Assembly (NCBI GenBank): GCA_002070275.1
Contig: MWCY01000011.1
Span: 19,847 to 83,846 of the forward strand
Length of the DNA: 64,000 nucleotides
DNA from: Candidatus Hydrogenedentes bacterium ADurb.Bin170
GTDB taxonomy: Bacteria > Hydrogenedentota > Hydrogenedentia > Hydrogenedentales > CAITNO01
Direction of reading: 5' to 3'
The translations under genes were made by a program, and so were the position numbers. The notes under the pieces are model-generated. The model did not search any database and had not been told where the DNA came from. It was given only the letters and a program-made list of their open reading frames with translations. This document shows, in pieces, positions 29,214-41,108 of this stretch (its first letter is position 1; every line of letters starts with the position of its first letter).

Positions 29214-29555
29214 TTAATGATCGCAGACATTCTCTCCTGATTCCAGAGTGCCCTCCAGGTAGCGCTGCACCAGGGCTTCCACCGGATCGGCCGGTGCGCC
29301 GATAACCACTTCGATATTGTTCTCGGCAAAAAGCGCCTGGGCACGTGCCCCCATGCCGCCGGCAATAATCACCTGGGCATTGCGCTCAGCAAGCCAGCGC
29401 GGCAGCAGCCCGGGCTGATGCTCCGGCGCATCGACCACATCCACTTTCAGAATGCTTTTCTGCTCCGGATCCGTATCCACGAGCGCAAACTGGGCACAGT
29501 GCCCGAAATGAAGGGCAAGATGCCCCTGAACTACCGGTATAGCAACACGCATCAT
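29214..29555 (-). CDS. NifX/NafY/NifB-C-terminal family (dinitrogenase FeMo-cofactor-binding-like, PF02579) protein
   Basis: MRVAIPV...HFGHCAQFALVD...VIIAGGMGARAQALFAENNIEVV is the canonical PF02579 pattern. Confidence 0.85.
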   Translation of the reverse strand: MMRVAIPVVQGHLALHFGHCAQFALVDTDPEQKSILKVDVVDAPEHQPGLLPRWLAERNAQVIIAGGMGARAQALFAENNIEVVIGAPADPVEALVQRYLEGTLESGENVCDH

Positions 29556-29613: not shown

Positions 29614-30012
29614 TTATGCTTCTGTTTTCATCTGCTTTACTGATGCCGATGCCTGATAATTTTCCAGCGCAGCACGCAGTGTATTCGATGCCAGCAGTGC
29701 ACAGTGCCGGTGCGCTTCCGGCATACCGCCCAGCGCATTCAGAATATCCTGCTGTGAGATTTCTTTTGCTTCCGCAACGGGCCTGCCTTCTGCAAGTTCT
29801 GTCGCCATGCTTCCGCAGGCGCGGGAAGGACCGCAGCCTGTCGTGGTAAACGAAGCGGCACTCACAATACCTTCATCGACCTGCACCCAGAACTCCATCG
29901 TGTCTCCGCAGGGACCGGTTATTCTGGCGTAGCCGTCCGGCTCCTGCAGTTCATCATAATTTCTTGGATTTCTGAAACGTTCCAATGCCTTGGCGCTGTA
30001 GTTTTCTTCCAT
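29614..30012 (-). CDS. IscU/NifU N-terminal-domain-like Fe-S cluster scaffold
   Basis: NPRNYDEL...ITGPCGDTMEF...TTGCGPSRACGSMATE...HCALLASN, with the three scaffold Cys and the His. Confidence 0.85.
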   Translation of the reverse strand: MEENYSAKALERFRNPRNYDELQEPDGYARITGPCGDTMEFWVQVDEGIVSAASFTTTGCGPSRACGSMATELAEGRPVAEAKEISQQDILNALGGMPEAHRHCALLASNTLRAALENYQASASVKQMKTEA

Positions 30013-30041: not shown

Positions 30042-30980
30042 TCAGCCGCCGTTTCCGCTTTCTGCATCTCCGGCATCAGGCGCTGTACCGTCAAGCATTG
30101 AAGCCACCCGGCACCAGATTTCACGGATCGCCTCAGCTGCGGCACCGCCATAATCAAGAACAGTTTTCCCCGCAACCTGCGCCTCCGTCATCCGGCGGTC
30201 ATAACCGATCCGTCCGACCGGACGGGCGCCCATTGAAAGAGCGACCGCTTCAATGCTTTCCGTCAATTCAGAATTGATATCCCACTTGTTGACACACACC
30301 GCCACGGGCACATTAAAATGCTTCGCCAGCCGGGCAACCCGCTCCAGATCGTGCTGTCCGCTTAACGTCGGTTCCGTGATGATCAATGCGAGCGATGTGC
30401 CTGTAATGGAAGCGATCACCGGACAGCCGATTCCGGGAGGACCGTCGATAATCAGTTTTGCAATCCCCTCCTTTTCCGCTCTGTCTCTTGCGGCACGGCG
30501 CACCGTCGACACCAGCTTGCCCGAGTTTTCCGCGGCAATACCCAGCTTCGCATGAACCATGGGCCCGCAGGGTGTCGAAGAAACATACCACTCCCCTGCC
30601 GTACATTCAGGAAAATCAATGGCGGCGGCAGGGCACCAGTCAACACAGACGCCACAGCCCTCACAGGACAGCGGATCCACTGTATACCGGACATCCGCTC
30701 CCGTATCCTCCCGCCGGATACCCTCAAAGCGGCACCGTTCATAACAGTCTCCGCATCGGGTGCAGTCCTCCTGCCTGATTACCGCCTGATGCCCGCTCCT
30801 GAATTCATAATGCTCTTCCGGCTCCGGGTGCAGCAGCAAATGCAGGTCGGCCGCATCCACGTCACAGTCTGCCAGCACCGCCCTCCCGGCAAGAGACGCA
30901 AAGGCGGCCGTAAGGCTTGTCTTGCCCGTTCCGCCTTTTCCGCTGATGATGACCAGCTCCCGGATATCATGCCTGCTCAT
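30042..30980 (-). CDS. MinD-superfamily P-loop ATPase with inserted 2x[4Fe-4S] ferredoxin domain (COG1149-like), copy 1
   Basis: Deviant Walker A ISGKGGTGKTS. CTRCGDCYERC and CEGCGVCVDWCP ferredoxin motifs. Confidence 0.85.
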   Translation of the reverse strand: MSRHDIRELVIISGKGGTGKTSLTAAFASLAGRAVLADCDVDAADLHLLLHPEPEEHYEFRSGHQAVIRQEDCTRCGDCYERCRFEGIRREDTGADVRYTVDPLSCEGCGVCVDWCPAAAIDFPECTAGEWYVSSTPCGPMVHAKLGIAAENSGKLVSTVRRAARDRAEKEGIAKLIIDGPPGIGCPVIASITGTSLALIITEPTLSGQHDLERVARLAKHFNVPVAVCVNKWDINSELTESIEAVALSMGARPVGRIGYDRRMTEAQVAGKTVLDYGGAAAEAIREIWCRVASMLDGTAPDAGDAESGNGG

Positions 30981-31920
30981 AGCGTTCCCCTATACCGAAA
31001 AACAGCTTGTTTTCCCGTTCCATAACACACAGCCTCCCCTCTTTTACCAGCCTGTCCAACAGCTTCGCCGTTTCAAGCCGATGAAAACCCAGCCCTTCCG
31101 CAATCTCCTCCAGGGGACAGGGACGCCGCCTCAGCATTTCCAGCACAGGTGCCTCCTGAGGCAGCAGCACGCCGCCGCTGTCCGGAATGTAACGGGGCGA
31201 AATAATTTCCGCCTCAGGTTCAAAAAAAGAAACATAGCGCTCCATCACGGAAAAAGAAACCGCTTTTACACGGCTCATGGCGGGCGGACGCTCCACCGTA
31301 TTGATCTGCACTTTATCCGGCCGGATCAGCCGCACCTGTGCCGCAATTTCGCGCACGCTGTCTTCATCATCATTGATACCGTCCATTAGAAAGACTTCGA
31401 GCCACAGGGCACCGGAAAACTCATTTCGGAAAGCAATCAGCCCTTCCAGCATTTTTGCAAAAGAAAGTCCCGCGACAGGCCGGTCTATTTTCTGAAAAAG
31501 ACGCTCATTTCCCGCATCCAGCGAGGGTAAAACAACATCCGCATGAAGGAGCGCATCCCGCACTTCCTGCTGCCAGAAGAGCGCACCGTTGGTAATGACT
31601 GCAACAGGAACAGACGTCAGTGATTTTATTTTCTGAATCAGCTCTCCGAGTCCCGTATGCAGGGCAGGCTCCCCGGCGCCCGAAATCGTTATGTAATCCG
31701 GCGCCGGATGTGTGGCAAGAAAAGCAGCCACTTCCTCCAGAACGGCTTCCACGTCCACATAGGCATCGCGCTGCATGGTGTGGCAGGTGGTGCGCCCCTG
31801 CTCGCAGTAGATGCAGTCATAGGGGCAGGTTTTCGCCGGAATCAGATCCACGCCCAGCGATCTGCCAAGGCGGCGTGATACTACAGGACCAAAGATGAAG
31901 GAATGTTTACGGGAAGTCAT
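30967..31920 (-). CDS. radical SAM protein (COG0731-like) with C-terminal winged-helix domain
   Basis: FGPVVSRRLGRSLGVDL...CPYDCIYC (CxxxCxxC). A C-terminal LEEIAEGLGFHRLETAKLLDRLVKEGRL wHTH. Overlaps its neighbours by 14 and 4 bp. Confidence 0.85.
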   Translation of the reverse strand: MTSRKHSFIFGPVVSRRLGRSLGVDLIPAKTCPYDCIYCEQGRTTCHTMQRDAYVDVEAVLEEVAAFLATHPAPDYITISGAGEPALHTGLGELIQKIKSLTSVPVAVITNGALFWQQEVRDALLHADVVLPSLDAGNERLFQKIDRPVAGLSFAKMLEGLIAFRNEFSGALWLEVFLMDGINDDEDSVREIAAQVRLIRPDKVQINTVERPPAMSRVKAVSFSVMERYVSFFEPEAEIISPRYIPDSGGVLLPQEAPVLEMLRRRPCPLEEIAEGLGFHRLETAKLLDRLVKEGRLCVMERENKLFFGIGERYEQA

Positions 31921-32786
31921 GAACGCACCGCCTTTCCTTTCTCACGCTGCCCCGCACCGTCCCGAATTTTTCCGAGCAATTCCATAAAGGATGCTCTGTA
32001 TTCAGGCAACGCATCAACGATCAGGGCACCTCCGGAGTAGGCAGCTGCAATACGGCGATCCTCGGGAAGTGTCAGCAATACCGGAATATCTTCTGCATCA
32101 CAATAATCCCGCACCCTGGCATCGCCCACGTCCGCACGGTTAATCACTACACCGAAAGGAAGCCCGAGGGTGCGAACCGTCTCCACAGCAAGCTGCAGAT
32201 CATTGAGACAGAATGGAGTCGGTTCGGTAACCAGCACAACGTAATCCATGCCCTTCAGGGTCGTGATCACAGGACAGGAGGTCCCCGGCGGCGCATCATA
32301 AATAATCACTGCCGCATCGGGCGCTTTCGCTTTTACCGCTCGGATCAAAGGCGGCGACATAGCAGCGCCCACGCGCAGCGTCCCCTGCACAAAATGTAAA
32401 TCGCCCGCCATTCCACGGCTGACCGTACCGATCGCATGGGAAGATTCAGTCAAGGCTTTTTCAGGGCAGGCAGGCACACAGCCGCCGCAACCGTGACATA
32501 GCTCCGCAAAAACAATCAGCTTTCCCGCCACACAGGCAAGCGCATTGAAACGACAGACTTCCACGCATTTGCCGCAGCCGGTACATAACGCCGGATCCAC
32601 CTGCGGCACAGGAATTCCCGCAGTTTCAGAAAATGAAAGCTCCGGCTTCAGAAAAAGATGACCGTTTGGCGCCTCCACATCGCAATCCACATAAACAGTT
32701 TCGTCACCCTCCGTAAGGGCAGCCAGATTGGCGGCAACGGTCGTTTTGCCTGTTCCGCCTTTTCCTGATGCGATGGCTATGTGCAT
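31917..32786 (-). CDS. MinD-superfamily P-loop ATPase with inserted 2x[4Fe-4S] ferredoxin domain, copy 2 (start MHIAIASGKGGTGKT; the track ORF is over-extended)
   Basis: IASGKGGTGKTT Walker A, plus CTGCGKCVEVC and CHGCGGCVPACP. Confidence 0.8.
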   Translation of the reverse strand: MHIAIASGKGGTGKTTVAANLAALTEGDETVYVDCDVEAPNGHLFLKPELSFSETAGIPVPQVDPALCTGCGKCVEVCRFNALACVAGKLIVFAELCHGCGGCVPACPEKALTESSHAIGTVSRGMAGDLHFVQGTLRVGAAMSPPLIRAVKAKAPDAAVIIYDAPPGTSCPVITTLKGMDYVVLVTEPTPFCLNDLQLAVETVRTLGLPFGVVINRADVGDARVRDYCDAEDIPVLLTLPEDRRIAAAYSGGALIVDALPEYRASFMELLGKIRDGAGQREKGKAVRS

Positions 32787-33006: not shown

Positions 33007-33375
33007 TCAAACCCAATGGCCATCCACAGCGGCAGCATGCATTTCCGCGAGGGCATCACGGCGCCACGCCTGCAGCGCCTCCGAAATCGGTACTTCATCC
33101 GAATGATAAACCCGTATGGATGATGCAGCAAATACAGTAAAGGCTTTGGGGCCGCAATGCCCTGTAACGAGAGCACTTGCTCCCGCTTTCACTACGGCCT
33201 GCGCTGCCTGTATGCCTGCTCCCTGAGGCGCGTTGACATTCTGCTGATTCTCCACCACCGTGTACTCGTCTGTGTCGGTGTCATAAATTAGAAAGCCATC
33301 GGCACGCCCGAAACGGGAACATACAAGCGCATTCAGATCTTTTCCTGATGTCGAAAATGCAATTTTCATAATCAT
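33007..33375 (-). CDS. NifX/NafY-like (PF02579) protein
   Basis: MKIAFSTSGKDL...FGRADGFLIYD...ALVTGHCGPKAF. Confidence 0.75.
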   Translation of the reverse strand: MIMKIAFSTSGKDLNALVCSRFGRADGFLIYDTDTDEYTVVENQQNVNAPQGAGIQAAQAVVKAGASALVTGHCGPKAFTVFAASSIRVYHSDEVPISEALQAWRRDALAEMHAAAVDGHWV

Positions 33376-33418: not shown

Positions 33419-33703
33419 TCAGCGGTCAGATGACTTTTCAAGAGAAGCCAGACGGTCCTGTACTTCTTCCAGTGCGCCCTGAAGCCGGGCGGCCTGTTCG
33501 CGCAGGGACTGTGACTCTGTTTCGGAACTTAAACCGAAACCACGACCGAAACCACGACCGAAACCCATACCGCCGCGCATACCGCGGCCTGAACCCGCAC
33601 CACGGCGCGCAGCCATACCACGACCGTCACGCAGGCACCCGCCTGCACCACGCCCCGTCAGGGCGCCTTTTCCGCAAGGTCCTGTTCCATCTCTTCCAGG
33701 CAT
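33419..33703 (-). CDS. DUF5320-like Gly/Arg-rich protein with C-terminal coiled coil
   Basis: MPGRDGTGPCGKGALTGRGAGGC... Gly/Arg-rich N-terminus. LREQAARLQGALEEVQDRLASLEK coiled coil. This family is usually found beside PF02579 genes. Confidence 0.65.
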   Translation of the reverse strand: MPGRDGTGPCGKGALTGRGAGGCLRDGRGMAARRGAGSGRGMRGGMGFGRGFGRGFGLSSETESQSLREQAARLQGALEEVQDRLASLEKSSDR

Positions 33704-33706
33704 AAT

Positions 33707-34393
33707 CTAGTTCCTTTCTTCTTTGTCCAGACTGCCTCTGTTCAGCAGCCATTCTTTCACATCCATCGGAGACATCTGCTTCTGCTGCGACAGCGCCCGG
33801 AACGTCGATCCGGGATCCGCCGTGAAACCCGCTTCCTGCAGGCGACTCAGTGTGTCTTCCAGAAGAAGCCCGGCATCGTCACAAAATTCCTGCACGGTCA
33901 TGCGACCGACACCTGTACCATGACCTGATGCAGGATGCACCGCCTCTGCAGAGAGCGCACCGGCACAGCTTCCAGCTTTCTCCTCTTCGGTCAATGCTGT
34001 AAGGAAGCTGAACGGCGGCACTTCAAAAATGGCACCTGCCGACAGCAGCAGAAAAAGAAGGAGTGCCGTGACCGCTTCTTTTTTCAAATGAAGCCGCTGT
34101 TTTAAAAACAGATAGCGCAACAGAATGCGCCAGTTGAAGTACACATGAATCAACCCGGCAACAACAAAAGTGCAGGCCATAATGATGTGCAGGGCATTCC
34201 ACTGATCTTTCGACAGCAGCAAAACACGCCAGCCTGTTTCCCGGGCAATGCGACAGGACGGAGCAAGGTAAAGCACGAGACCGGACACCGCCAGTGTCAG
34301 AAAAACCAGGCTGATCAGAAAACTGGTAAGCCCTCTGCCGTGCCAGGGCGTTTTCTGTTTGTCTGTTGCCTCTTGTGTGCTCACTGTCATCAT
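33707..34393 (-). CDS. small integral membrane protein (4 TM, conserved His in helices; DUF4405-like?) with soluble C-terminal domain
   Basis: Hydrophobic helices LTSFLISLVFLTLAVSGLVLYL, LHIIMACTFVVAGLIHVYF, ALLLFLLLSAGAIF. Confidence 0.65.
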   Translation of the reverse strand: MMTVSTQEATDKQKTPWHGRGLTSFLISLVFLTLAVSGLVLYLAPSCRIARETGWRVLLLSKDQWNALHIIMACTFVVAGLIHVYFNWRILLRYLFLKQRLHLKKEAVTALLLFLLLSAGAIFEVPPFSFLTALTEEEKAGSCAGALSAEAVHPASGHGTGVGRMTVQEFCDDAGLLLEDTLSRLQEAGFTADPGSTFRALSQQKQMSPMDVKEWLLNRGSLDKEERN

Positions 34394-34399
34394 GCTACC

Positions 34400-34906
34400 T
34401 CACTCATGCCCGAAGGGGCGGTTGCAGCCGGGACATACGGCTGATTCCGGATGCCTCCGGCAGTTGGGAAGACGGCAGCCGCACTCAGGACATACGGAAT
34501 GCCCTCCAGAAAACCCGGGTTTGCCTCTGCCGTATCCCTGTCCTTTTCCGGCGCCGCACCGGCGCCCGCCGGAACCGCAGCCCGGCATGGCAAAAGCGCC
34601 GCTGCAGACAGTGCCTGCGAGCACTGCTGCCAGTATTTCTTCAACATCACCGGAGATAAACGGGATCAGCTGAATGCCGGCGGCAGAAAGCCAGTCGGCA
34701 AAACGCCGGGATACAGCGCCGCACACCAGCTGCCTTACGCCCAGTGCTTCAAGCTGTGAAAGCAGATTCTGTACGGTGCCTCCGGCAATTTCTTTTTCCT
34801 GACGGGACACCACAACCCCTTGCTGCAGCTCAACGACAAGAAACGTCCGGGCTGTATCCAGCACCGGAGAAATGCGTTGTTCCCTTACTGTCAGTGCAAT
34901 CTTCAT
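34400..34906 (-). CDS. NifX/NafY-like domain fused to Cys/Gly-rich zinc-ribbon-like tail
   Basis: An N-terminal PF02579-like MKIALTV...LVCGAVSRRF...LIPFISG. The tail GCGSGGRRCGAGKGQGYGRGKPGFSGGHSVCPECGCRLPNCRRHPESAVCPGC. Confidence 0.8.
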   Translation of the reverse strand: MKIALTVREQRISPVLDTARTFLVVELQQGVVVSRQEKEIAGGTVQNLLSQLEALGVRQLVCGAVSRRFADWLSAAGIQLIPFISGDVEEILAAVLAGTVCSGAFAMPGCGSGGRRCGAGKGQGYGRGKPGFSGGHSVCPECGCRLPNCRRHPESAVCPGCNRPFGHE

Positions 34907-34931: not shown

Positions 34932-34947
34932 GAGCATACACCGTGCC
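34932..34947 (-). promoter_or_regulatory. candidate sigma-54 (-24/-12) promoter TGGCAC-GGTGT-ATGCT for the NifX/MinD/radical-SAM operon
   Basis: The minus strand reads TGGCACGgtgtATGCT with correct N5 spacing. GG and GC are conserved and the -12 reads ATGC instead of TTGC. It lies ~25 nt upstream of the ATG at 34906. Confidence 0.5.
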
Positions 34948-35020
34948 AATGATCAAAATATTTTTAACATACTGATATTAAATGAATTACAGGAGAGCGG
35001 GATCGCATTTTCGGCGAGAT

Positions 35021-35088
35021 AAGTCGCATTAATGCGACTATTAGAGATGCAACAGTCGCAATAGTGCGACTTATTTGCGACGCGTCGC
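35021..35088. promoter_or_regulatory. three dyad-symmetric GTCGCA/TGCGAC sites (candidate enhancer/UAS for the adjacent sigma-54 activator)
   Basis: AGTCGCAttaaTGCGACT (35021-35038), AGTCGCAatagTGCGACT (35053-35070), TGCGACgcGTCGCA (35075-35088). Centres are ~32 bp apart, at about -108 and -140 from the -12 element. Confidence 0.5.
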
Positions 35089-36450
35089 AGGAGGGAGCGT
35101 CAGGCCCAGAGCACGAACCTTGCGGAACAGCGTGCTCTTATGCATGCCCAGCAGATCAGCCGCTTTCTGCCTGTTTCCATCGCACGCTTTCAGGGCATCG
35201 AGAATGGCACGGGCCTCCGCTTCCTGAACCGCATTGTTCAGCGACGGAGCAGTCCCAGCGCCGGAGCGGCGGTAAAAAGCCTGCATCGCTTCAGGCAGAC
35301 ATCCGACATCAATGAGCGGCCTGTCACACAGCACGAAGGCATGTTCAATGCTGTTCTCCAGTTCACGGATATTACCCGGATAGTCGTAGGACATCAGCAG
35401 GCGCATTGCCTCCGCAGTGACCCCTTCTACCGTTTTATTCTGCCGGAGATGATTGTTACGACGGATAAACCGGTCCACGAGCAGGGGAATATCTTCCCGG
35501 CGCTCCCGGAGCGGCGGCAGTTCCAGCCTGATCACATTGATTCTGTAATAAAGATCCTGCCTGAAAAGTCCTTCCTGAACCAGTGCGCCGAGCGATTTGT
35601 TGGTGGCGGCAATGATGCGCACATCTGTGTGAAATGCGCGGGTTGCGCCCAGCGGCTCATACTGCTTTTCCTGGAGCACCCGCAGCAGCCGAACCTGCAT
35701 GGCAGGGCTGATATCCCCTATTTCATCCAGAAAAAGGCTCCCTTTTTCCGCCAGAGCAAAGCGGCCGGGCTTGTCTTTGTCCGCTCCGGTAAAAGCACCT
35801 GCCTGATACCCGAAGAGCTCGGACTCCAGCAGCGTATCAGGCAATGCGCCGCAGTTGATGCCAAGAAAAGGTCCTTTGTGCCGGCCGCTCAGATCATGAA
35901 TTGCCCGTGCCAGCAGCTCCTTGCCGGTACCTGTTTCTCCTTCTATGACAACAGGCACCTCGCTGGCTGCCACCTGCGGCAGCATCTGAAAGAGTTTTTC
36001 CATGGCGGCACTTCTGCTGACCATGTCGCCCAAGTCATAGCGATGTTCAATTTCACGCCGCAGCTCTTCCACAAGACTCAGATCACGAAAGGTTTCCACA
36101 CCTCCCACAACATTTCCCCTTTCATCCTTCAGCAGTGCAGTTGAAAGACTGATGGGGATGCGCTCTCCTGCCGCATCGACGATATAGACAGATTTGTTAA
36201 TGATGGGTTCCCCCGAATCCAGCGTGTGACGCAGGGCGCATTCCTCTTCGCAGGTGCTGGCGCGAAAAACTTCGCAGCAGCGCCTGCCCAGTGCTTCTTC
36301 CCGGGGAATACCGGTGATCTCTTCGGCGGCGCGGTTGAAGGAGGTAATACGCCATCCATGATCTACCGTGAATACTCCGTCGGAAATACTTTCCAGAATA
36401 ATCTCCGTGCTCTCCGGCGGCAGCATATCTTTGGAAAAAGGCTGATCCAT
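35071..36450 (-). CDS. sigma-54-dependent transcriptional activator (PAS - AAA+ - Fis-type HTH), PAS domain with Cys4 cluster
   Basis: GAFTGA motif, ESELFGY, Walker A GETGTGKE, and a C-terminal HTH. The PAS has CC-x6-C-x3-C (RRCCEVFRASTCEEEC). Confidence 0.9.
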   Translation of the reverse strand: MDQPFSKDMLPPESTEIILESISDGVFTVDHGWRITSFNRAAEEITGIPREEALGRRCCEVFRASTCEEECALRHTLDSGEPIINKSVYIVDAAGERIPISLSTALLKDERGNVVGGVETFRDLSLVEELRREIEHRYDLGDMVSRSAAMEKLFQMLPQVAASEVPVVIEGETGTGKELLARAIHDLSGRHKGPFLGINCGALPDTLLESELFGYQAGAFTGADKDKPGRFALAEKGSLFLDEIGDISPAMQVRLLRVLQEKQYEPLGATRAFHTDVRIIAATNKSLGALVQEGLFRQDLYYRINVIRLELPPLRERREDIPLLVDRFIRRNNHLRQNKTVEGVTAEAMRLLMSYDYPGNIRELENSIEHAFVLCDRPLIDVGCLPEAMQAFYRRSGAGTAPSLNNAVQEAEARAILDALKACDGNRQKAADLLGMHKSTLFRKVRALGLTLPPATRRK

Positions 36451-36604: not shown

Positions 36605-37582
36605 CTATTTGCCCGTATTCAGCAGCTTCTGCACTTCCGGACTTTCCAGATTTTCCAGCGTCACCACCGTGACTCCCGTGTCAATGATCGGCGGCACCTC
36701 TTCCCCTTTGAGCGATGCCACAGCCGCTTTCACGCCTTCATAGCCCATCTTGAAAGGATCCTGCACAATCAGTGCCTGAATCACTCCTTCTTTCAGCGCA
36801 TTGATCTCTTCTTCGGTCGCATCAAAGCCGACCAGTTTGACCTTTCCGGCTTTTCCTGCCGCCCGGAGTGCCTGAGCTGCACCGATGGCGCCGGGTTCGT
36901 TGGTTGCGAAAATACCGCCCAGATCGGGATGTGCCGTCAGCATATCGGAGGTCACATTCATTCCTGTACTGACATCACTCTGGGTATAGTTCGTGGCAAC
37001 AATTTTCATGCCCGGGAATTCAGTCACCCCTTCCTTGAAACCGCGCTCACGGATTTCAGACGTTGCAGCGCCGGAAATGAAGGGAAGCAGCCCCAGTTCG
37101 CCCTGTCCTCCCATGAGATCCGCCAGCACGCGTGCCGCCATTTTGGCGCCTTCGAGATTATCCGTGGCAACGAGACTTTTCGGAATATCCGACTTCACAC
37201 CCGAATCAACCATGACGACAGGAATGCCCGCCCTGTCCGCCTGTGCGATGACGGCACCCAGCGCATTTTCATCGCACGCCGCCATGACAATGGCACTCAC
37301 GCCCCGAGTAATCATGTCCTGCACAATATTGATTTGCTGGGCGATCTCGGTTTCCTTGGGAGGACCCTGCCAGACCACAGAGGCACCGCACTCGGCTGCA
37401 GCCGCTTCCGCTCCCGCCTTCACACCCAGCCAGAACTGATGAGACAAACCTTTGGGGATCACAGCAATTTCCAGAGCACCGCTCTTCGCCCCGCCGGAAC
37501 CGGAACTGCCGCTTCCACTGCCGCCGCAGCCGGCAAGACAAATCAGCGACAACAGAACTGCGCCTGTCGTTATGTATCTCAT
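36605..37582 (-). CDS. ABC transporter periplasmic sugar-binding lipoprotein (RbsB/monosaccharide-binding family)
   Basis: Lipobox LAGC plus a Gly/Ser linker. A PBP type I fold (VIPKGLSHQFW...VDSG...VGFD). Confidence 0.85.
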   Translation of the reverse strand: MRYITTGAVLLSLICLAGCGGSGSGSSGSGGAKSGALEIAVIPKGLSHQFWLGVKAGAEAAAAECGASVVWQGPPKETEIAQQINIVQDMITRGVSAIVMAACDENALGAVIAQADRAGIPVVMVDSGVKSDIPKSLVATDNLEGAKMAARVLADLMGGQGELGLLPFISGAATSEIRERGFKEGVTEFPGMKIVATNYTQSDVSTGMNVTSDMLTAHPDLGGIFATNEPGAIGAAQALRAAGKAGKVKLVGFDATEEEINALKEGVIQALIVQDPFKMGYEGVKAAVASLKGEEVPPIIDTGVTVVTLENLESPEVQKLLNTGK

Positions 37583-37609: not shown

Positions 37610-38755
37610 CTAGCGTGGGATCCGGAATTGTTTGTTGCTGCCTTCCACTTCTATCTCGATGCCGATGCCGGAGGAGGCAACACCGATAAGGCGCGCCCGT
37701 GTACCCGGAATGGTTTCACCGACATATACTTTCTTCAGATTGATAATTGCAAGCGCATCAGGCTGATCTTTATCAGCAGGACGCAGCACATTCACGCGCA
37801 GCCCGTCCAGACCGAAGCGCGCACGCTCCTGGGAAGACAGACGCGGGAGATTGTCCACACTTACCGCACCGCCGGACGAACGCGCCGACGGAACACGCGG
37901 CACTGTCCCGGCAGAGGCGGAGGGGTATTCTGACGGCGTCTGGGCAATCACACTTCGCTCAGCAGGCGCAGAAACAGGCGCAGGAACAGGTGCAGGAACG
38001 GGAACAACCACGGGCTCCTGGACGGGTACAGGTGCCGGAGGTGGCGCTGGAGCAACAGGTTCAGGCGCAGGCACGGACGCAGGAGGCGGCACCGGGGCAA
38101 CAGGCTCAGGCACTGGCACTGGTGCAGGCTCCGAGACGGGTGCAGGCGCAGGAGGCGGCACCGGGGCAACAGGCTCAGGTACAGGTGCAGGCTCAGGAAC
38201 GGGCGGCGGCAAATCCGCCACTTTGACCACAGGCGGAGGCGCCGATGTTTCCTGTGGAAAGCGATCGGGCAGCGGGATGGATTCCGGCAGCGGGGGCCGG
38301 GTCGTTTCTTTTTTTTCCGGCACTGCCGCCGGGGCAGATTTTGGGGGTGCAGGCGGAGGTGTCGGCGGCGTTTCTCCGGCAGGTTCTGCTTTCGAAGCAG
38401 CCTTTTTCTCTTCCGGTACAGGTGCAGCCACAGGCGGAGGCGCCGTCACAGGCATCTGATAGCTGTGCGTATCAGCTGCCGGTGCGCCAGCGACCTGTTC
38501 GGGCGGTGTTGCCCCGCCTTTGACGGCAAGAAAATACCCTACAGGAACCAACGCCAGTACAAAACCGCCGCACAGCGCCAGCACAACAGGCAACCAGACC
38601 GGCATCCGCTTTTCACGTTCAGGCACAGAGGATTCGCCAAGGAGGACAGATGCCGCCTCTTCAGGGGAGAGGGTCGGCTCATAATCGCCGGGCTGCGACT
38701 GCTTCGCCGCTTTTTCCTGCTCCAGTTTATTCAGGGCATCCAGAATGGAACTCAT
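37610..38755 (-). CDS. GspB/ExeB-like protein with a long Pro-rich repeat region (partner of ExeA)
   Basis: MSSILDALNKLEQEK N-terminus, a single TM, then PVPEPVAPVPPPAPAP repeats. It sits immediately downstream of the ExeA-like gene. Confidence 0.6.
   Translation of the reverse strand: MSSILDALNKLEQEKAAKQSQPGDYEPTLSPEEAASVLLGESSVPEREKRMPVWLPVVLALCGGFVLALVPVGYFLAVKGGATPPEQVAGAPAADTHSYQMPVTAPPPVAAPVPEEKKAASKAEPAGETPPTPPPAPPKSAPAAVPEKKETTRPPLPESIPLPDRFPQETSAPPPVVKVADLPPPVPEPAPVPEPVAPVPPPAPAPVSEPAPVPVPEPVAPVPPPASVPAPEPVAPAPPPAPVPVQEPVVVPVPAPVPAPVSAPAERSVIAQTPSEYPSASAGTVPRVPSARSSGGAVSVDNLPRLSSQERARFGLDGLRVNVLRPADKDQPDALAIINLKKVYVGETIPGTRARLIGVASSGIGIEIEVEGSNKQFRIPR
37960..38230 (-). repeat. in-frame tandem DNA repeats encoding the Pro/Val/Ala/Glu-rich linker
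   Basis: gcaggaggcggcaccggggcaacaggctcagg recurs at about 38080 and 38147, along with similar GC-rich units. Confidence 0.7.
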
Positions 38756-38795
38756 GCACTGGTGCCTTTCACATTCCTGAAGTCGCTGCAGCTGA

Positions 38796-41108
38796 TCATT
38801 GATATGCACTTTCCCGGGCGGCGGGCACCAGTGGCGAACTGCCCGTTACAGGCATCGTGGCAGAGGAGGGCAAACCCTCCGGGGCATATCCGGGTGCGAT
38901 AAAAGGAACACCCGGTTCAGGCAATTCGCGTTCCTCTATCAGTTTTTCTCCGCCGACTGACAGCACAGAAGGGGCCGAGACTTTTTCCTCCTCTTCCCGC
39001 ACGCCGTCCGCAGGCGCACCCAATAGGCGCAGCAGACTGCTTTCCTGGCCCGGCGCTGCAGCATCACGCTCTTCGCTCAGGGATGAGTCCGTGTTGCTTT
39101 CAGATGCAGCAGAAGGTTCAGCAGCGGTAAAAATAATTTCTTTTTCGGCTGCAGGCGCCGCCGTTTTCTGTGCAGGAGTTTCCCCGGAAGGCTTCCGGAC
39201 AGGTGCCGTTTTTTCAGCGACGACGGCTTTTTTCAAGGGATCCTGTTTTGCAGGTGCCGGGACTTTGCTGACCGTTTCCGCCGCCGTAATGGCTGCCGCA
39301 TCTGCCGGAGCACCGCCTTCGCTTTCGGCCGCATTTCCCGCCGCCGGGCGTTCCTGCAGGGTCGGCACATCAGCGCTGAAACTTGCCAGAGCAAGCCGCA
39401 CCTGACGCCCCGCTTTTCCGTCCGCCTTCAAGCCCGCCAGCTCCTGAATGCGCATCACCGCTTTTTCAGTGGCTTTATCGAAAGTGTCGCCTGTATTGCC
39501 TGCATCCAGCAGGCCCGCCCGACGCAGTTTTTCCTTCAATGCTTCAATCTGTGGGCCCTTCTGACCCAGCACCAGGACGGGTCCCGAGAAACCGGCATCA
39601 TTCCAGGAGAACACTGCCTCTTTGGCGTAATAGAGGGAAAACTCTTTTAAAGGAACGATAATACGCTTATTCACTGCCGGAAGGAGTGTCACCGTTTCCT
39701 GATCCATCCGCACCAGCCCCAGCCAGCAGGTGATCTCTCCGGCATGAAGCCGTACAAGGCCGGGCAGATTGATGGCGGCCAGATGCTCCGCCGACGGGCG
39801 GATATGCTCGCTGGCAAGACCCTGGGCTTCCAAAAAGCGAACCAGTGTGTCCGCATCACCTTTTGCCGGATACTCTGACGGCGACGGCCGGTTCCACAGA
39901 GACAGGAGCGTTTCCAGCCCGCCCTGAAGGGCTTTTTCCGCATCCAGCTCCGCAAGCACAGGCGCCAGCTGCTGTGCATTTTTGCCGGCTCCTGCCGCAT
40001 TCAGCCGGTTCAGCACCTGGCGCAGCGGCTCTTCCGTCGCTGGCTGCACAGGCACCGCCGGGGAAGTCGCATCGCTCGCCGCTTCTGCCGCTGTCCGCGC
40101 TGCCCCGCTTTCGGGCGTGCCCGGCACCGCTTCGGTGCTACCCGTTAAGATCCGGTTGAAGTGGTTGAGCTCCTGCGCAAAACGATCGAGGGGCGACACA
40201 AGATAATGTATCAGCACGATCGCAACAGCCAGAATCAGCAGCAGGGCAGGCGAAGGGATCAGCCGCCTCCACCGGGTGCGGGGTTCTTTGGGTGCCGTAA
40301 TTTTTTCACCCCGGATTTCTTTCTCCGCCTGCTTCACCAGTTTTGCGGAAATAACATGCTGCTCTTTCGTGTAGCCGATGAGCAGCGTCCGGTCGCATAA
40401 GGCGTTAATCATGCGCGGCACGCCACCAGCAAGTTTGTAGACCTGGGTCACCGCCGCCTTGGTAAAATTGATGCGTTTGCGCCCGCCTGCAACATGAATT
40501 CTGTAGGCGATATACTGGAGCGTTTCGCTGGCGCTCAGCGATTTCAGATGATAGCGTGCCGTAATCCGTTGATTCAGCTGGCGCAGTTCACGCAGTGCCA
40601 GTTTTTCCGCCAGCTCCGGCTGACCGATCAGAATGATCTGAAGGAGTTTTTCCGTATCCGTTTCAAGATTCGAGAGAAGGCGGATCTGTTCGAGCACCTG
40701 AGGCGAAAGGTTTTGTGCTTCATCAATGACGAGCACGCAGTCTTTTCCCATGGCACTGGAATGGAGCAGATGCACATTCAGCTCTTCGGTCAGCTCCAGC
40801 ACTGTATCCGCATCCGATTCAATTCCGAATTCCTGATTGATCTTTTTCATCAGCTCGATGGCACTCAGGAAAGGATTGAAAATAAAGGCGACTTCCGTAT
40901 TGGAATCAAGCTGGTTGAGCAGGTTGCGGCACAGCGTAGTCTTCCCCGTTCCGATTTCGCCGGTGATCATCACGAATCCGCTACGGTTCTTGATGCCGTA
41001 GAGCAAATGAGCGAAAGCCTCTTTGTGCTTTTCGCTCAGATAGAGAAATTTGGGATCGGGCGTCAGATTGAAAGGACGCTCACGAAGCCCGTAAAAGGAT
41101 TCATACAT
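38796..41108 (-). CDS. ExeA/GspA-like AAA+ ATPase with C-terminal peptidoglycan-binding domain
   Basis: ITGEIGTGKTTLCRNLL Walker A. A mid-protein TM. A C-terminal PG_binding_1-like TFDKATEKAVMRIQELAGLKADGKAG. Confidence 0.85.
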   Translation of the reverse strand: MYESFYGLRERPFNLTPDPKFLYLSEKHKEAFAHLLYGIKNRSGFVMITGEIGTGKTTLCRNLLNQLDSNTEVAFIFNPFLSAIELMKKINQEFGIESDADTVLELTEELNVHLLHSSAMGKDCVLVIDEAQNLSPQVLEQIRLLSNLETDTEKLLQIILIGQPELAEKLALRELRQLNQRITARYHLKSLSASETLQYIAYRIHVAGGRKRINFTKAAVTQVYKLAGGVPRMINALCDRTLLIGYTKEQHVISAKLVKQAEKEIRGEKITAPKEPRTRWRRLIPSPALLLILAVAIVLIHYLVSPLDRFAQELNHFNRILTGSTEAVPGTPESGAARTAAEAASDATSPAVPVQPATEEPLRQVLNRLNAAGAGKNAQQLAPVLAELDAEKALQGGLETLLSLWNRPSPSEYPAKGDADTLVRFLEAQGLASEHIRPSAEHLAAINLPGLVRLHAGEITCWLGLVRMDQETVTLLPAVNKRIIVPLKEFSLYYAKEAVFSWNDAGFSGPVLVLGQKGPQIEALKEKLRRAGLLDAGNTGDTFDKATEKAVMRIQELAGLKADGKAGRQVRLALASFSADVPTLQERPAAGNAAESEGGAPADAAAITAAETVSKVPAPAKQDPLKKAVVAEKTAPVRKPSGETPAQKTAAPAAEKEIIFTAAEPSAASESNTDSSLSEERDAAAPGQESSLLRLLGAPADGVREEEEKVSAPSVLSVGGEKLIEERELPEPGVPFIAPGYAPEGLPSSATMPVTGSSPLVPAARESAYQ

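What the first reader, a model, noticed from the sequence alone, without database searches (positions are those of the whole stretch)
33419..34906. DUF5320-type Gly/Arg/Cys-rich module appears both standalone and fused to a NifX-like domain
The standalone 94-aa protein begins MPGRDGTGPCGKGALTGRGAGGC… and ends in a coiled coil. The NifX-like protein at 34400–34906 ends with a strikingly similar segment (MPGCGSGGRRCGAGKGQGYGRGKPGFSGG…) followed by CPEC…CPGC zinc-ribbon-like pairs. Having the same low-complexity Cys-containing motif as a free protein and as a C-terminal fusion to a cofactor-binding domain suggests a shared metal-binding or interaction module specific to this system. The fusion is a 'Rosetta-stone' link between DUF5320 and PF02579.
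Basis: seen in the sequence. Interest (0 to 1): 0.6.

Follow-up and report, generated by a model that had tools for sequence, protein, structure and literature searches.

The report
NifX-like protein with fused zinc-ribbon tail
The Cys/Gly/Arg-rich tail on this NifX-like protein is not a copy of the neighbouring DUF5320 protein; it is the subfamily's own "MPGC" motif joined to a small Gly/Arg-linker-plus-zinc-ribbon gene that stands alone in related genomes, although true NifX–DUF5320 fusions are common in other bacteria.

Summary
Both ORFs exist exactly as described. The 94-aa protein (33419-33703, minus strand) is a canonical DUF5320. The 168-aa protein (34400-34906, minus strand) is a PF02579 domain with a Cys/Gly/Arg tail and CPxC pairs.

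The claimed similarity fails every profile test:
- Pfam finds no DUF5320 in the tail.
- My own DUF5320 HMM gives E=2.3.
- hhalign gives 0.4-2% probability, against 95.9% for a positive control.

The tail has two parts:
- Residues 107-121 carry the F-x-MPGC…C motif, present in 166 of 195 members of this NifX subfamily.
- Residues 122-166 are a diverged copy of a Gly/Arg linker plus Cys6His zinc ribbon (hhalign 94.6%, E 6.6e-8).

In relatives this linker-plus-ribbon is a separate small gene directly downstream (TAATG overlap in L005). That family has at least 2,269 clusters at 50% identity and no dedicated Pfam or NCBIfam model. In 53 of the top 120 members it begins with the DUF5320 N-motif.

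The Rosetta-stone idea holds at family level. Of 84 species-level homologues, 17-30 carry a real DUF5320 N-module, and 11 loci encode orange-protein-like NifX proteins fused to a Gly/Arg segment plus coiled coil.

The context is a σ54/OrpR-type orange-protein (ORP) operon. The mechanism is inferred by analogy with IssA: cationic tails handling anionic metal-sulfide species.

The parts
35071..36450 (-). σ54 enhancer-binding protein, OrpR-like. It has a PAS domain with a C57-x8-C66-x3-C70 triad, a σ54 interaction domain and a Fis-type HTH.
   Evidence: Pfam Sigma54_activat E=2e-67, PAS and HTH_8. The Cys spacing matches DvH OrpR C52/C61/C65, which bind a [4Fe-4S] cluster (PMC8359166). An EBP lies directly upstream of the NifX-subfamily gene in 62 of 84 loci.
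35023..35089 (.). Three perfect palindromes (GTCGCA-N4-TGCGAC twice, TGCGAC-N2-GTCGCA once). They are candidate EBP binding sites.
   Evidence: (G)TCGCA-N4-TGCGA(C) is found upstream of the homologous gene in 14 of 84 loci from several phyla. Function is inferred.
34933..34948 (-). σ54 -24/-12 promoter, TGGCAC-GGTGT-ATGCT, starting 42 nt upstream of the ATG.
   Evidence: The same pattern lies 32-191 nt (mostly 40-60 nt) upstream of the homologous gene in 43 of 84 loci, against 2 of 84 random control segments.
34589..34906 (-). PF02579 (NifX/NifB-like) domain, residues 1-106, of a distinct subfamily with RISPVLD and LVCGAVS motifs.
   Evidence: Pfam 35.4 bits against a cut-off of 26.3. AF2 pLDDT >90 for residues 1-100. 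Foldseek hits PH0822, TM1816, MJ0327, MTH1175, NifX, ORP and NafY with TM up to 0.82. Subfamily alignment A2 has invariant R11, I12, P14, D17, C62, S66 and G109.
34544..34588 (-). Subfamily-specific tail motif F-A-MPGC-x6-C (residues 107-121; C110, C117). It is Arg/Gly-rich.
   Evidence: Cys follows MPG in 166 of 195 homologues, and 125 of 195 have at least 2 Cys in the next 22 residues. That stretch averages 29% R+K, 4% D+E and 20% Gly. No relation to DUF5320 or to the linker-ribbon family by hhalign (Prob 2.1% and 0.15%).
34400..34543 (-). Fused Gly/Arg linker plus diverged Cys-rich zinc ribbon (residues 122-168, with the stop codon at 34400-34402; Cys at C139, C142, C144, C149, C158, C161).
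   Evidence: hhalign of the tail alone against the 60-sequence small-protein family A4: Prob 94.6%, E 6.6e-8, 45 columns. Ribbon HMM: 10.2 bits, reached by 1 of 2000 shuffles. In L010 and L005 this module is a separate gene directly downstream. AF2 pLDDT is 48-71 here.
33707..34393 (-). DUF4405 (cytochrome-b-like) membrane protein with a C-terminal soluble part.
   Evidence: Pfam DUF4405 E=2e-14. Among 84 loci a homologue occurs only in L010, in the same position.
33419..33703 (-). Canonical DUF5320 protein. N-motif at residues 1-23 (single invariant Cys23), GRG/GFG repeats at 24-58 (pI 12 over residues 1-58, 40% Gly), and about 3.5 heptads of coiled coil at 64-90.
   Evidence: Pfam E=1.3e-13. 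Family alignment A1 has invariant M1, G8, P9, G13, T16, G17, G21 and C23. Composition, heptads. A coiled-coil-type DUF5320 gene lies downstream of the NifX-subfamily gene in 53 of 84 loci.
33007..33372 (-). Orange-protein (ORP/Orp8) homologue, a second PF02579 protein.
   Evidence: Pfam E=7e-24. The best solved structure is 2WFB, D. gigas ORP, E=4e-17.
31917..32786 (-). Orp3-like MinD/CbiA P-loop ATPase with a 2x[4Fe-4S] ferredoxin insert.
   Evidence: Pfam CbiA and Fer4 (two stretches). Orp3 and Orp4 are described in PMC6345978.
30967..31920 (-). Radical SAM protein.
   Evidence: Pfam Radical_SAM E=5e-16. A homologue is present downstream in 22 of 84 loci.
30042..30980 (-). Orp4-like second MinD/CbiA ATPase with a ferredoxin insert.
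   Evidence: Pfam CbiA and Fer4.
29614..30012 (-). NifU_N/IscU-type Fe-S scaffold.
   Evidence: Pfam NifU_N E=4e-29.
29214..29555 (-). Third PF02579 protein of the operon.
   Evidence: Pfam Nitro_FeMo-Co E=2e-20.

Best explanation
Shown:
- The 168-aa ORF is the first gene of a σ54/OrpR-type orange-protein (ORP) operon.
- Its N-terminal 106 residues are a PF02579 domain of a distinct subfamily (here called NifXM). The subfamily's hallmark is a C-terminal F-x-MPGC-(C/G)-x5-15-C, Arg-rich tail.
- Residues 122-166 are homologous to a small-protein family built as Gly/Arg linker plus Cys6His zinc ribbon.
- In related genomes that module is encoded by a separate small gene directly downstream.
- The neighbouring 94-aa protein is a canonical DUF5320 (N-motif, GRG repeats, coiled coil).
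- At family level there is one modular set of small proteins: an optional MPxGDGTGP..TGRG..C motif, then a GRG linker, then either a coiled coil or a zinc ribbon. Its members are habitual neighbours and repeated fusion partners of PF02579 domains.
- In this window the free protein and the tail share only the GRG-type linker, not the DUF5320 motif.

Inferred:
- In this lineage the downstream small gene was fused in frame onto the NifXM gene.
- By analogy with IssA and with the orange protein itself, the disordered cationic GRG segments (pI 10-12) and their few thiolates hold or pass on anionic metal-sulfide species bound by the PF02579 domains. IssA is a PF02579 domain plus a cationic Gly/Arg/aromatic tail that binds anionic thioferrate. 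The orange protein binds [S2MoS2CuS2MoS2]3- non-covalently.
- The coiled coil or the zinc ribbon supplies oligomerisation, or docking to the Orp3/Orp4-type Fe-S ATPases.
For: Identity and negative test:
- ORFs and Pfam.
- The tail is not DUF5320. The positive control (18 fused N-modules against DUF5320) gives Prob 95.9%, E 5e-9.
- MPGC is a subfamily trait.

Tail = linker plus ribbon family:
- hhalign 94.6%, E 6.6e-8; 1 of 2000 shuffles reaches the ribbon HMM score.
- Standalone genes directly downstream of NifXM in L005, L010, L071 and L079.
- TAATG stop/start overlap in L005.
- L010 gene order NifXM | ribbon gene | DUF4405 | DUF5320 matches the window, unfused.
- The fused relatives P0044, P0061 and L006 retain the 'MFG...' start of the downstream gene.

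Family size and link to DUF5320:
- At least 3945 clusters at 90% identity and 2269 at 50% identity.
- 53 of the top 120 start with MPRGDGTGP-like motifs.
- Pfam DUF5320 scores 31 bits (above the cut-off of 27) on one such 80-aa protein.
- No dedicated Pfam or NCBIfam model covers the ribbon.

Fusions and context:
- NifXM~DUF5320N in 17-30 of 84 loci.
- ORP-like NifX~GRG~coiled coil in 11 loci.
- Ribbon fused to ferredoxin, an RnfB-like Fe-S domain, DUF134-like and NifX domains.
- ORP context: 2WFB E 4e-17, OrpR-like Cys triad, σ54 promoter, Orp3/4-like ATPases.
- IssA analogy: PMC5524996. Charge and composition. Disorder.
Against: - No experiment bears on DUF5320 or on the ribbon family. The mechanism rests on analogy only.
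- The window's ribbon is degenerate. It is not recovered in a search of 8519 ORFs at E<=10. It lacks the first Cys, the His and the P-C of the consensus. Its closest relatives, P0002-P0004, keep only remnants. It may be decaying rather than functional.
- The protein fails the published IssA-clade criteria: pI 8.8, 10 Cys, 15% Gly in the last 40 residues.
- The mutual exclusion of the fused module and a separate ribbon gene (0 of 21 against 12 of 63) rests on small numbers and on loci truncated at contig ends.
Confidence: 0.7

Rival explanations
1. One reading: the tail is a DUF5320-type module, the same Cys/Gly/Arg metal-binding or interaction motif as in the free 94-aa protein.
For: - Both segments start MPG and are Gly/Arg/Cys-rich.
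- The Smith-Waterman score is modestly above composition (58 of 5000 shuffles reach it).
- Real DUF5320 N-modules are fused to this NifX subfamily in many relatives.
Against: - No Pfam hit at E<=10.
- HMM E=2.3; the N-module HMM gives no hit.
- hhalign Prob 2.1% and 0.4%, against 95.9% for the positive control.
- The best local alignment does not pair the MPG starts.
- MPGC is also present in relatives that carry a separate, genuine MPxGDGTGP module 20-40 residues later, so the two motifs are distinct elements.
Confidence: 0.08
2. The tail is a decaying remnant. The fusion happened, but the linker and ribbon no longer function, and the similarity to anything is low-complexity noise.
For: - The ribbon lacks three of the seven consensus Cys/His in register.
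- It is not recovered at E<=10 in the ORF-wide search.
- The nearest relatives, P0002-P0004, retain only one CPxC.
- pLDDT is 48-71.
Against: - Six Cys are retained in 23 residues, with the CPxC spacing nearly preserved (19 against 20 residues).
- hhalign Prob 94.6% also covers the linker.
- The identical sequence is on 56 contigs.
Confidence: 0.12
3. The GRG (RGG-like) segments plus zinc ribbon or coiled coil bind nucleic acid or drive condensates. They would act in regulation or in cell-division positioning, a role proposed for the ORP complex, rather than in metal-cluster handling.
For: - RGG/GRG repeats and zinc ribbons are classic nucleic-acid binders (general knowledge).
- The ribbon family is fused to proteins whose N-termini I recognised by eye as DUF134-like, a domain predicted to bind DNA. 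No Pfam scan was run on them.
- The ORP complex has been linked to cell morphology and division, and MrpORP is polar (PMC8359166, PMC6345978).
Against: - Most fusion partners are metal-cluster domains: PF02579, ferredoxin and an RnfB-like Fe-S domain.
- The genes sit inside operons with an IscU-like scaffold, radical SAM and Fe-S ATPases.
- The conserved single Cys in the N-motif and the Cys6His set point to metal ligation.
Confidence: 0.12
4. The Cys6His 'ribbon' is a rubredoxin-like Fe or small Fe-S site acting in electron transfer, not a structural Zn site. It would resemble Orp5/Dde_3197, the small Cys-rich ORP-operon protein reported to bind [2Fe-2S]. This is compatible with the best explanation's architecture and differs only in the role given to the ribbon.
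For: - The family consensus has six invariant Cys plus one His, more than a Zn ribbon needs.
- The weak structural neighbours include rubredoxin and rubrerythrin knuckles.
- Orp5 is described as homologous to a [2Fe-2S] protein (PMC6345978).
Against: - No significant match to any rubredoxin or Fe-S family.
- The identity of Orp5 relative to this family could not be checked.
- The FmdB-type Zn_ribbon_8 genes seen in L001 and L002 are a different ribbon.
Confidence: 0.2

Closest known systems
Orange protein (ORP) gene cluster of Desulfovibrio vulgaris Hildenborough (orp1/orp2 operons, OrpR/DVU2106; Fievet 2011 as cited in PMC6345978 and PMC8359166)
   Same: - σ54 EBP with a PAS-domain Cys triad (C-x8-C-x3-C).
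- σ54 -24/-12 promoter.
- An ORP homologue (2WFB, E 4e-17).
- Two MinD-like ATPases with 2x[4Fe-4S] motifs (Orp3/Orp4-like).
- Several PF02579 proteins.
   Different: - One co-directional operon instead of two divergent ones.
- The candidate EBP site is a GTCGCA-N4-TGCGAC palindrome, not GGGCGYRTTTTGCGCCC.
- GAFTGA instead of GAFTDA in the EBP.
- No MrpORP (Orp9) gene: only sub-threshold matches, 24-40 bits against a cut-off of 450.
- Extra genes: DUF5320, DUF4405, radical SAM and NifU_N.
- The published descriptions I could read do not mention DUF5320 or the linker-ribbon proteins.
IssA / 'IssX' (Pyrococcus furiosus PF2025 and relatives; PMC5524996)
   Same: A PF02579/IPR003731 globular domain is followed by a disordered, cationic, Gly/Arg-rich tail containing cysteine. 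The tail is proposed to bind an anionic inorganic Fe-S polymer electrostatically.
   Different: - The published clade criteria (pI >= 9, fewer than 5 Cys, at least 20% Gly in the last 40 residues) are not met: pI 8.8, 10 Cys, 15%.
- The tail here ends in a zinc ribbon.
- Much of the cationic segment is supplied in trans by a separate protein (DUF5320).
- No thioferrate evidence exists for this system.
Pfam PF17253 (DUF5320)
   Same: The free 94-aa protein is a full-length member. Relatives of the fused protein carry the N-terminal half of the model.
   Different: - The window's tail does not match the model.
- The model spans N-motif, GRG and coiled coil as one unit. The data here show these are separable modules, with a zinc ribbon as an alternative C-terminus.
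NifX/NafY/NifB-C-terminal FeMo-co carrier domains (PF02579)
   Same: Same fold: Foldseek TM 0.5-0.8 to NifX, NafY, MTH1175 and TM1816.
   Different: - No nif genes appear in the cluster.
- The subfamily-specific motifs RISPVxD, LVCGAxS and MPGC are not the NifX equivalog. No protein of the cluster reaches TIGR02663 nifX: the only match is the ORP-like protein at 17 bits against a cut-off of 112.

Membership tests
PF17253 / DUF5320 - free 94-aa protein (33419-33703) | Pfam score above the gathering cut-off across the whole model. | tested here: met
   52.4 bits against 27; model positions 1-99 of 99.
PF17253 / DUF5320 - free 94-aa protein (33419-33703) | N-motif M-P-x-x-D-G-T-G-P-x-G-x-G-x-x-T-G-R-G-x-G-x-C, GRG/GFG repeats, and a C-terminal amphipathic helix. 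| tested here: met
   All invariant columns of A1 are present. Heptads are shown.
PF17253 / DUF5320 - tail of the 168-aa protein (residues 107-168) | Pfam or HMM match to the family. | tested here: not met
   No Pfam hit at E<=10. Own HMM E=2.3; the N-module HMM gives no hit. hhalign Prob 2.1% and 0.4%.
PF17253 / DUF5320 - tail of the 168-aa protein (residues 107-168) | DGTGP / TGRG motif and coiled coil. | tested here: not met
   The sequence reads MPGCGSGGRRCGAGKG.... There is no DGTGP, no TGRG and no helix.
PF02579 (Nitro_FeMo-Co / NifX-like) - residues 1-106 | Pfam score above the cut-off and an α/β NifX fold. | tested here: met
   35.4 bits against 26.3. AF2 pLDDT >90. Foldseek E 2e-9 to 2e-4 to ten PF02579-type structures.
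'NifXM' subfamily (defined here from 197 sequences) | RISPV(F/L)D, L(V/I)CGA(V/I)S and (F/L/M)-x-MPGC motifs, and first gene after a σ54 EBP and promoter. | tested here: met
   The window has RISPVLD, LVCGAVS and FAMPGC. EBP and promoter.
Gly/Arg-linker + Cys6His zinc-ribbon small-protein family (no dedicated Pfam or NCBIfam model found) | Profile match over GRGRMGG..GPGG-C-x-CPxCG-x4-H-x2-G-x-PC-x4-CPxCG. | tested here: met
   hhalign Prob 94.6%, E 6.6e-8, 45 columns. HMM i-E 2.4e-4; 1 of 2000 shuffles reaches the score.
Gly/Arg-linker + Cys6His zinc-ribbon small-protein family (no dedicated Pfam or NCBIfam model found) | All seven invariant Cys/His in register. | tested here: not met
   Only the two CPxC pairs (4 Cys) are in register. 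The first Cys is replaced by Ser, the His by Asn, and the P-C by P-E. Two extra Cys sit at shifted positions.
ORP (orange protein) system as in D. vulgaris | An ORP homologue, two MinD-like 2x[4Fe-4S] ATPases, and an OrpR-type σ54 EBP with a PAS Cys triad and a σ54 promoter. | tested here: met
ORP (orange protein) system as in D. vulgaris | MrpORP (Orp9) and Orp5 present. | tested here: inconclusive
   No protein of the cluster reaches NF041136 MrpORP (best 39.8 bits against 450).
IssA clade (PMC5524996 criteria) | pI >= 9, fewer than 5 Cys, and at least 20% Gly in the C-terminal 40 residues. | tested here: not met
   pI 8.8, 10 Cys, 15% Gly. Criteria are from the supplement.
IssA clade (PMC5524996 criteria) | Binds thioferrate and forms nanoparticles. 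| not testable with these tools
   Needs anaerobic biochemistry, XAS and TEM.

The most novel reading that the evidence does not exclude
DUF5320 and the undescribed Gly/Arg-linker + Cys6His-ribbon proteins would form one widespread family (thousands of clusters across bacteria and archaea) of free-standing 'IssA-tail' equivalents. They would be short cationic disordered peptides with one thiolate, acting as counter-ion chaperones that wrap anionic metal-sulfide chains or clusters held by PF02579 domains. A coiled coil or a new Cys6His metal-binding ribbon would multimerise or dock them. The repeated independent fusions to NifX-like, ferredoxin and RnfB-like domains would record this partnership. 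The NifXM subfamily's own conserved Met-Pro-Gly-Cys tail could even be the fossil start of an older fusion of the same kind.
Probability: 0.25. Interest if true: 0.7.

Novelty: new variant of a known kind. Interest (0 to 1): 0.45.

Why it matters
- DUF5320 has no literature. The term appears only in passing in two unrelated papers among about 8 million, and 'PF17253' and 'GDGTGP' appear in none. The ORP complex itself still lacks a defined function.
- The data show that DUF5320 is modular, that a large unnamed zinc-ribbon family shares its N-motif and linker, and that both are repeatedly fused to PF02579 domains inside σ54/OrpR-controlled operons.
- This yields a concrete, testable hypothesis: cationic tails supplied in trans or in cis for anionic metal-sulfide cargo, as in IssA. 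It also yields defined constructs to test it.
- It corrects an attractive but wrong homology call. The MPGC motif is a NifX-subfamily trait, not DUF5320.

Tried and rejected
- Direct homology of the tail to DUF5320 was rejected by BLASTP, Pfam, own HMMs and hhalign.
- Homology of the MPGC tail to the N-part of the linker-ribbon family was rejected (hhalign Prob 0.15%).
- The ribbon as an FmdB-type Zn_ribbon_8, like the separate small genes in L001 and L002, was rejected. Those have a different pattern (YEYxCxxCG...CPxCG) and only E 0.07-0.4 against the ribbon HMM and Pfam.
- Any dedicated Pfam or NCBIfam family for the ribbon: only sub-threshold generic zinc-ribbon hits.
- Structural neighbours of the ribbon model: nothing with E<=0.001, only generic Zn-knuckle or rubredoxin-like hits.
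- Assembly or frameshift artefact for the fusion was rejected. The identical protein is on 56 contigs from several sources.
- Fievet 2011 (PMC3133258) is not held in the library. The DvH DVU2107 and DVU2105 sequences could not be obtained, so their relation to NifXM and to the ribbon family is untested.
- The IssA supplement holds no tail sequences to compare.
Full report
**What is there.**
On the minus strand the window carries a ten-gene, co-directional cluster. In order:
- a σ54 enhancer-binding protein (35071-36450)
- a 168-aa PF02579 protein with a Cys/Gly/Arg tail (34400-34906)
- a DUF4405 membrane protein (33707-34393)
- a 94-aa DUF5320 protein (33419-33703)
- a second PF02579 protein (33007-33372)
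- a MinD/CbiA ATPase with two 4Fe-4S motifs (31917-32786)
- a radical SAM protein (30967-31920)
- a second MinD-ferredoxin ATPase (30042-30980)
- a NifU_N scaffold (29614-30012)
- a third PF02579 protein (29214-29555)

The identical 168-aa protein (P0001, named from a Candidatus Hydrogenedentes MAG) occurs on 56 contigs from five sources, so the fused reading frame is real.

**Is the similarity real?**
No, not beyond composition.
- BLASTP between the two proteins gives E=0.33 over nine residues.
- Pfam DUF5320 scores the free protein at 52 bits but does not report the tail even at E<=10.
- I built a DUF5320 HMM from 33 homologues of the window's protein and ran it on the 120 best homologues of the fused protein. 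It finds a clear DUF5320 N-module in 13-18 of them (E 1e-7 to 3e-4). The window's protein scores E=2.3, and only on GxGxGRG. An HMM of the N-module alone does not report it at all.
- Profile-profile comparison gives 95.9% probability (E 5e-9) for the genuine fused modules as a positive control. It gives 2.1% for 118 aligned tails and 0.4% for the zinc-ribbon-type tails.
- A shuffle-controlled Smith-Waterman test is weakly positive (60 against 41.8±6.6; 58 of 5000 shuffles reach it). The optimal path aligns the tail to the GRG repeats at DUF5320 residues 31-55, not MPG to MPG.

**What the tail really is.**
Alignment of homologues shows that the PF02579 domain belongs to a distinct subfamily, which I call NifXM. 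It has invariant RISPVxD and LVCGAxS motifs and a C-terminal F-x-MPGC-(C/G)…C segment. Cys follows MPG in 166 of 195 sequences, and the next 22 residues average 29% Arg+Lys and 4% Asp+Glu. Relatives with a true DUF5320 module have both MPGC and, 20-40 residues later, MPxGDGTGP.

Downstream of MPGC, tails fall into three classes:
- short tails (about 60-80% of sequences)
- a DUF5320 N-module plus a Gly/Gln/Arg tail
- a Gly/Arg linker plus a CxCPxCG-x4-H-x2-G-x-PC-x4-CPxCG ribbon

The window belongs to the third class but is diverged.
- The tail alone aligns to a 60-sequence profile of the small-protein family with 94.6% probability (E 6.6e-8), over 45 columns that include the linker.
- Only 1 of 2000 shuffles reaches its score against the ribbon HMM.
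- It keeps only the two CPxC pairs in register. It was not recovered in an unbiased search of 8519 ORFs.

**Origin by fusion of neighbouring genes.**
- In the nearest species-level relatives the linker-ribbon is a separate small gene directly after NifXM.
- In L005 (Hydrogenedentota) the NifXM stop and the small gene's ATG overlap as TAATG.
- In L010 (Nitrospirales) the order NifXM | ribbon gene | DUF4405 | DUF5320 reproduces the window's order in unfused form.
- The fused proteins P0044, P0061 and L006 still contain the small gene's 'MFG…' start inside the tail.

**Relation to DUF5320 after all.**
- A profile of the ribbon found at least 3945 clusters at 90% identity. A full HMMER scan found 2269 clusters at 50% identity.
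- Members are mostly 51-115 aa, occur in bacteria and archaea, and lack any dedicated Pfam or NCBIfam model.
- Of the top 120, 53 begin with an MPRGDGTGP…TGRG motif.
- Pfam DUF5320 scores one such 80-aa protein above its cut-off, over its N-terminal half.
- DUF5320 is therefore modular. The N-motif and GRG linker occur with a coiled coil (the Pfam family), with the zinc ribbon, alone, in tandem, or fused to PF02579.
- The AF2 model of a ribbon-family member is disordered for residues 1-40 and folded (pLDDT 79-88) for the ribbon.
- The window's tail descends from the ribbon branch and lacks the N-motif. The free protein is from the coiled-coil branch. They share only the linker type.

**Rosetta-stone survey.**
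Among 84 NifXM genes from species-representative genomes and related loci (545 genomes matched the signature):
- 17 (by HMM) to 28-30 (by motif) carry a fused DUF5320 N-module, and 4 carry the ribbon.
- 53 have a coiled-coil-type DUF5320 gene downstream.
- 58 have an ORP-like PF02579 gene downstream.
- 39 have MinD-ferredoxin genes downstream.
- 22 have the radical SAM gene downstream.
- 62 have a σ54 EBP upstream.

Fourteen of the 17 HMM-confirmed N-module fusions keep a separate coiled-coil DUF5320 gene. None of the 21 fused proteins (N-module or ribbon) has a separate ribbon gene, against 12 of the other 63. This suggests the fused module replaces the ribbon-type paralogue, but the numbers are small. 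Eleven loci encode ORP-like PF02579 proteins fused to a GMGRG segment plus coiled coil. The ribbon is also fused to ferredoxins, an RnfB-like Fe-S domain, N-termini that look DUF134-like by eye (no Pfam scan was run on them), and giant multi-NifX proteins.

**System context.**
- The second PF02579 protein's best solved relative is the Desulfovibrio gigas orange protein (2WFB, E 4e-17).
- The EBP has a PAS Cys triad spaced as in OrpR, where it binds a redox-sensing [4Fe-4S] cluster.
- A TGGCAC-N5-ATGCT promoter starts 42 nt upstream of the NifXM start. The same pattern is present in 43 of 84 loci against 2 of 84 controls.
- The two ATPases match the description of Orp3 and Orp4.
- This is therefore an ORP-type operon, extended by DUF5320, DUF4405, radical SAM and NifU_N. 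It has no MrpORP gene.

**Mechanism (inferred).**
- The PF02579 fold is confident. The tail is predicted to be disordered up to the ribbon.
- The GRG segments are strongly cationic: pI 12.0 for DUF5320 residues 1-58 and 10.3 for tail residues 107-136, with about 40% Gly.
- The one characterised protein with this design is IssA. Its PF02579 domain binds Fe and S, and its cationic Gly/Arg/aromatic tail, which has a single Cys, is proposed to wrap anionic thioferrate. An uncharacterised 'IssX' clade has similar tails.
- The orange protein itself holds an anionic Mo/Cu-sulfide cluster non-covalently.
- I therefore propose that the DUF5320-family peptides, in trans or fused, neutralise and ligate anionic metal-sulfide cargo on PF02579 domains. 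The coiled coil or ribbon would serve oligomerisation or docking to the Fe-S ATPases.
- The window protein does not meet the published IssA-clade criteria, so this claims only that it may work like IssA, not that it is a member.
- Rivals: a decaying tail, nucleic-acid binding by the RGG-like repeats, and a redox-active Fe site in the ribbon. These are listed with their tests.

**Verdict.**
The interesting product is the modular DUF5320/linker-ribbon family and its repeated fusion to PF02579 domains in ORP operons. I found no literature on this.

Noticed in passing
P0282, P0284, P0286, P0290, P0294, P0296, P0344 (proteins): Giant proteins of 600-1500 aa with an N-terminal transmembrane segment, several NifX-like domains and 3-5 copies of the Cys6His ribbon. 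This architecture has no description that I know of.
   Followed up: partly
P0318, P0323, P0342, P0391, P0413; P0334, P0340, P0357; P0299: The Gly/Arg-linker + ribbon module is also fused to N-termini that look DUF134-like by eye (not confirmed by a Pfam scan), to 4Fe-4S ferredoxins, and to an RnfB-like Fe-S domain. The last also carries a DUF5320 N-motif.
   Followed up: partly
window 35023-35089: Three perfect palindromes (GTCGCA-N4-TGCGAC twice, TGCGAC-N2-GTCGCA once) overlap the 3' end of the EBP gene, about 90-150 nt upstream of the σ54 promoter. A (G)TCGCA-N4-TGCGA(C) site recurs upstream of NifXM in 14 of 84 loci from several phyla. It differs from the published DvH OrpR site.
   Followed up: partly
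window 33707-34393 (-) and L010 8766-9614: A DUF4405 (cytochrome-b-like) membrane protein with a roughly 100-aa soluble C-terminal part sits between the NifXM and DUF5320 genes. Among 84 loci this occurs only here and in one Nitrospirales locus.
   Followed up: no
L046 9274-9783, L047 9103-9675, P0125: DUF5320 proteins with two N-motifs in tandem before the GRG region and coiled coil.
   Followed up: no
L070 1058-1888, P0117: Single polypeptides that join a NifXM domain (with its MPGC tail) to an ORP-like PF02579 domain. This is another Rosetta-stone link within the operon.
   Followed up: no
L001 10147-10386 and 13562-13849; L002 9177-9437: Separate FmdB-type Zn_ribbon_8 small genes (YEYxCxxCG…CPxCG) sit inside or next to the clusters. 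They are a different ribbon from the one fused in the window. They may correspond to Orp5, but that could not be checked.
   Followed up: partly
window 37610-38809 (-): A 399-aa ORF with long Pro/Ala/Val-rich repeats (…PVPEPAPVPEPVAPVPPPAP…), just beyond the periplasmic-binding-protein gene at 36605-37582.
   Followed up: no
window 34400-34906 (-), residue 8: The window's NifXM has Arg where at least 90% of the subfamily has Trp (W8, in the 'WxxRISPV' motif used to find relatives).
   Followed up: no
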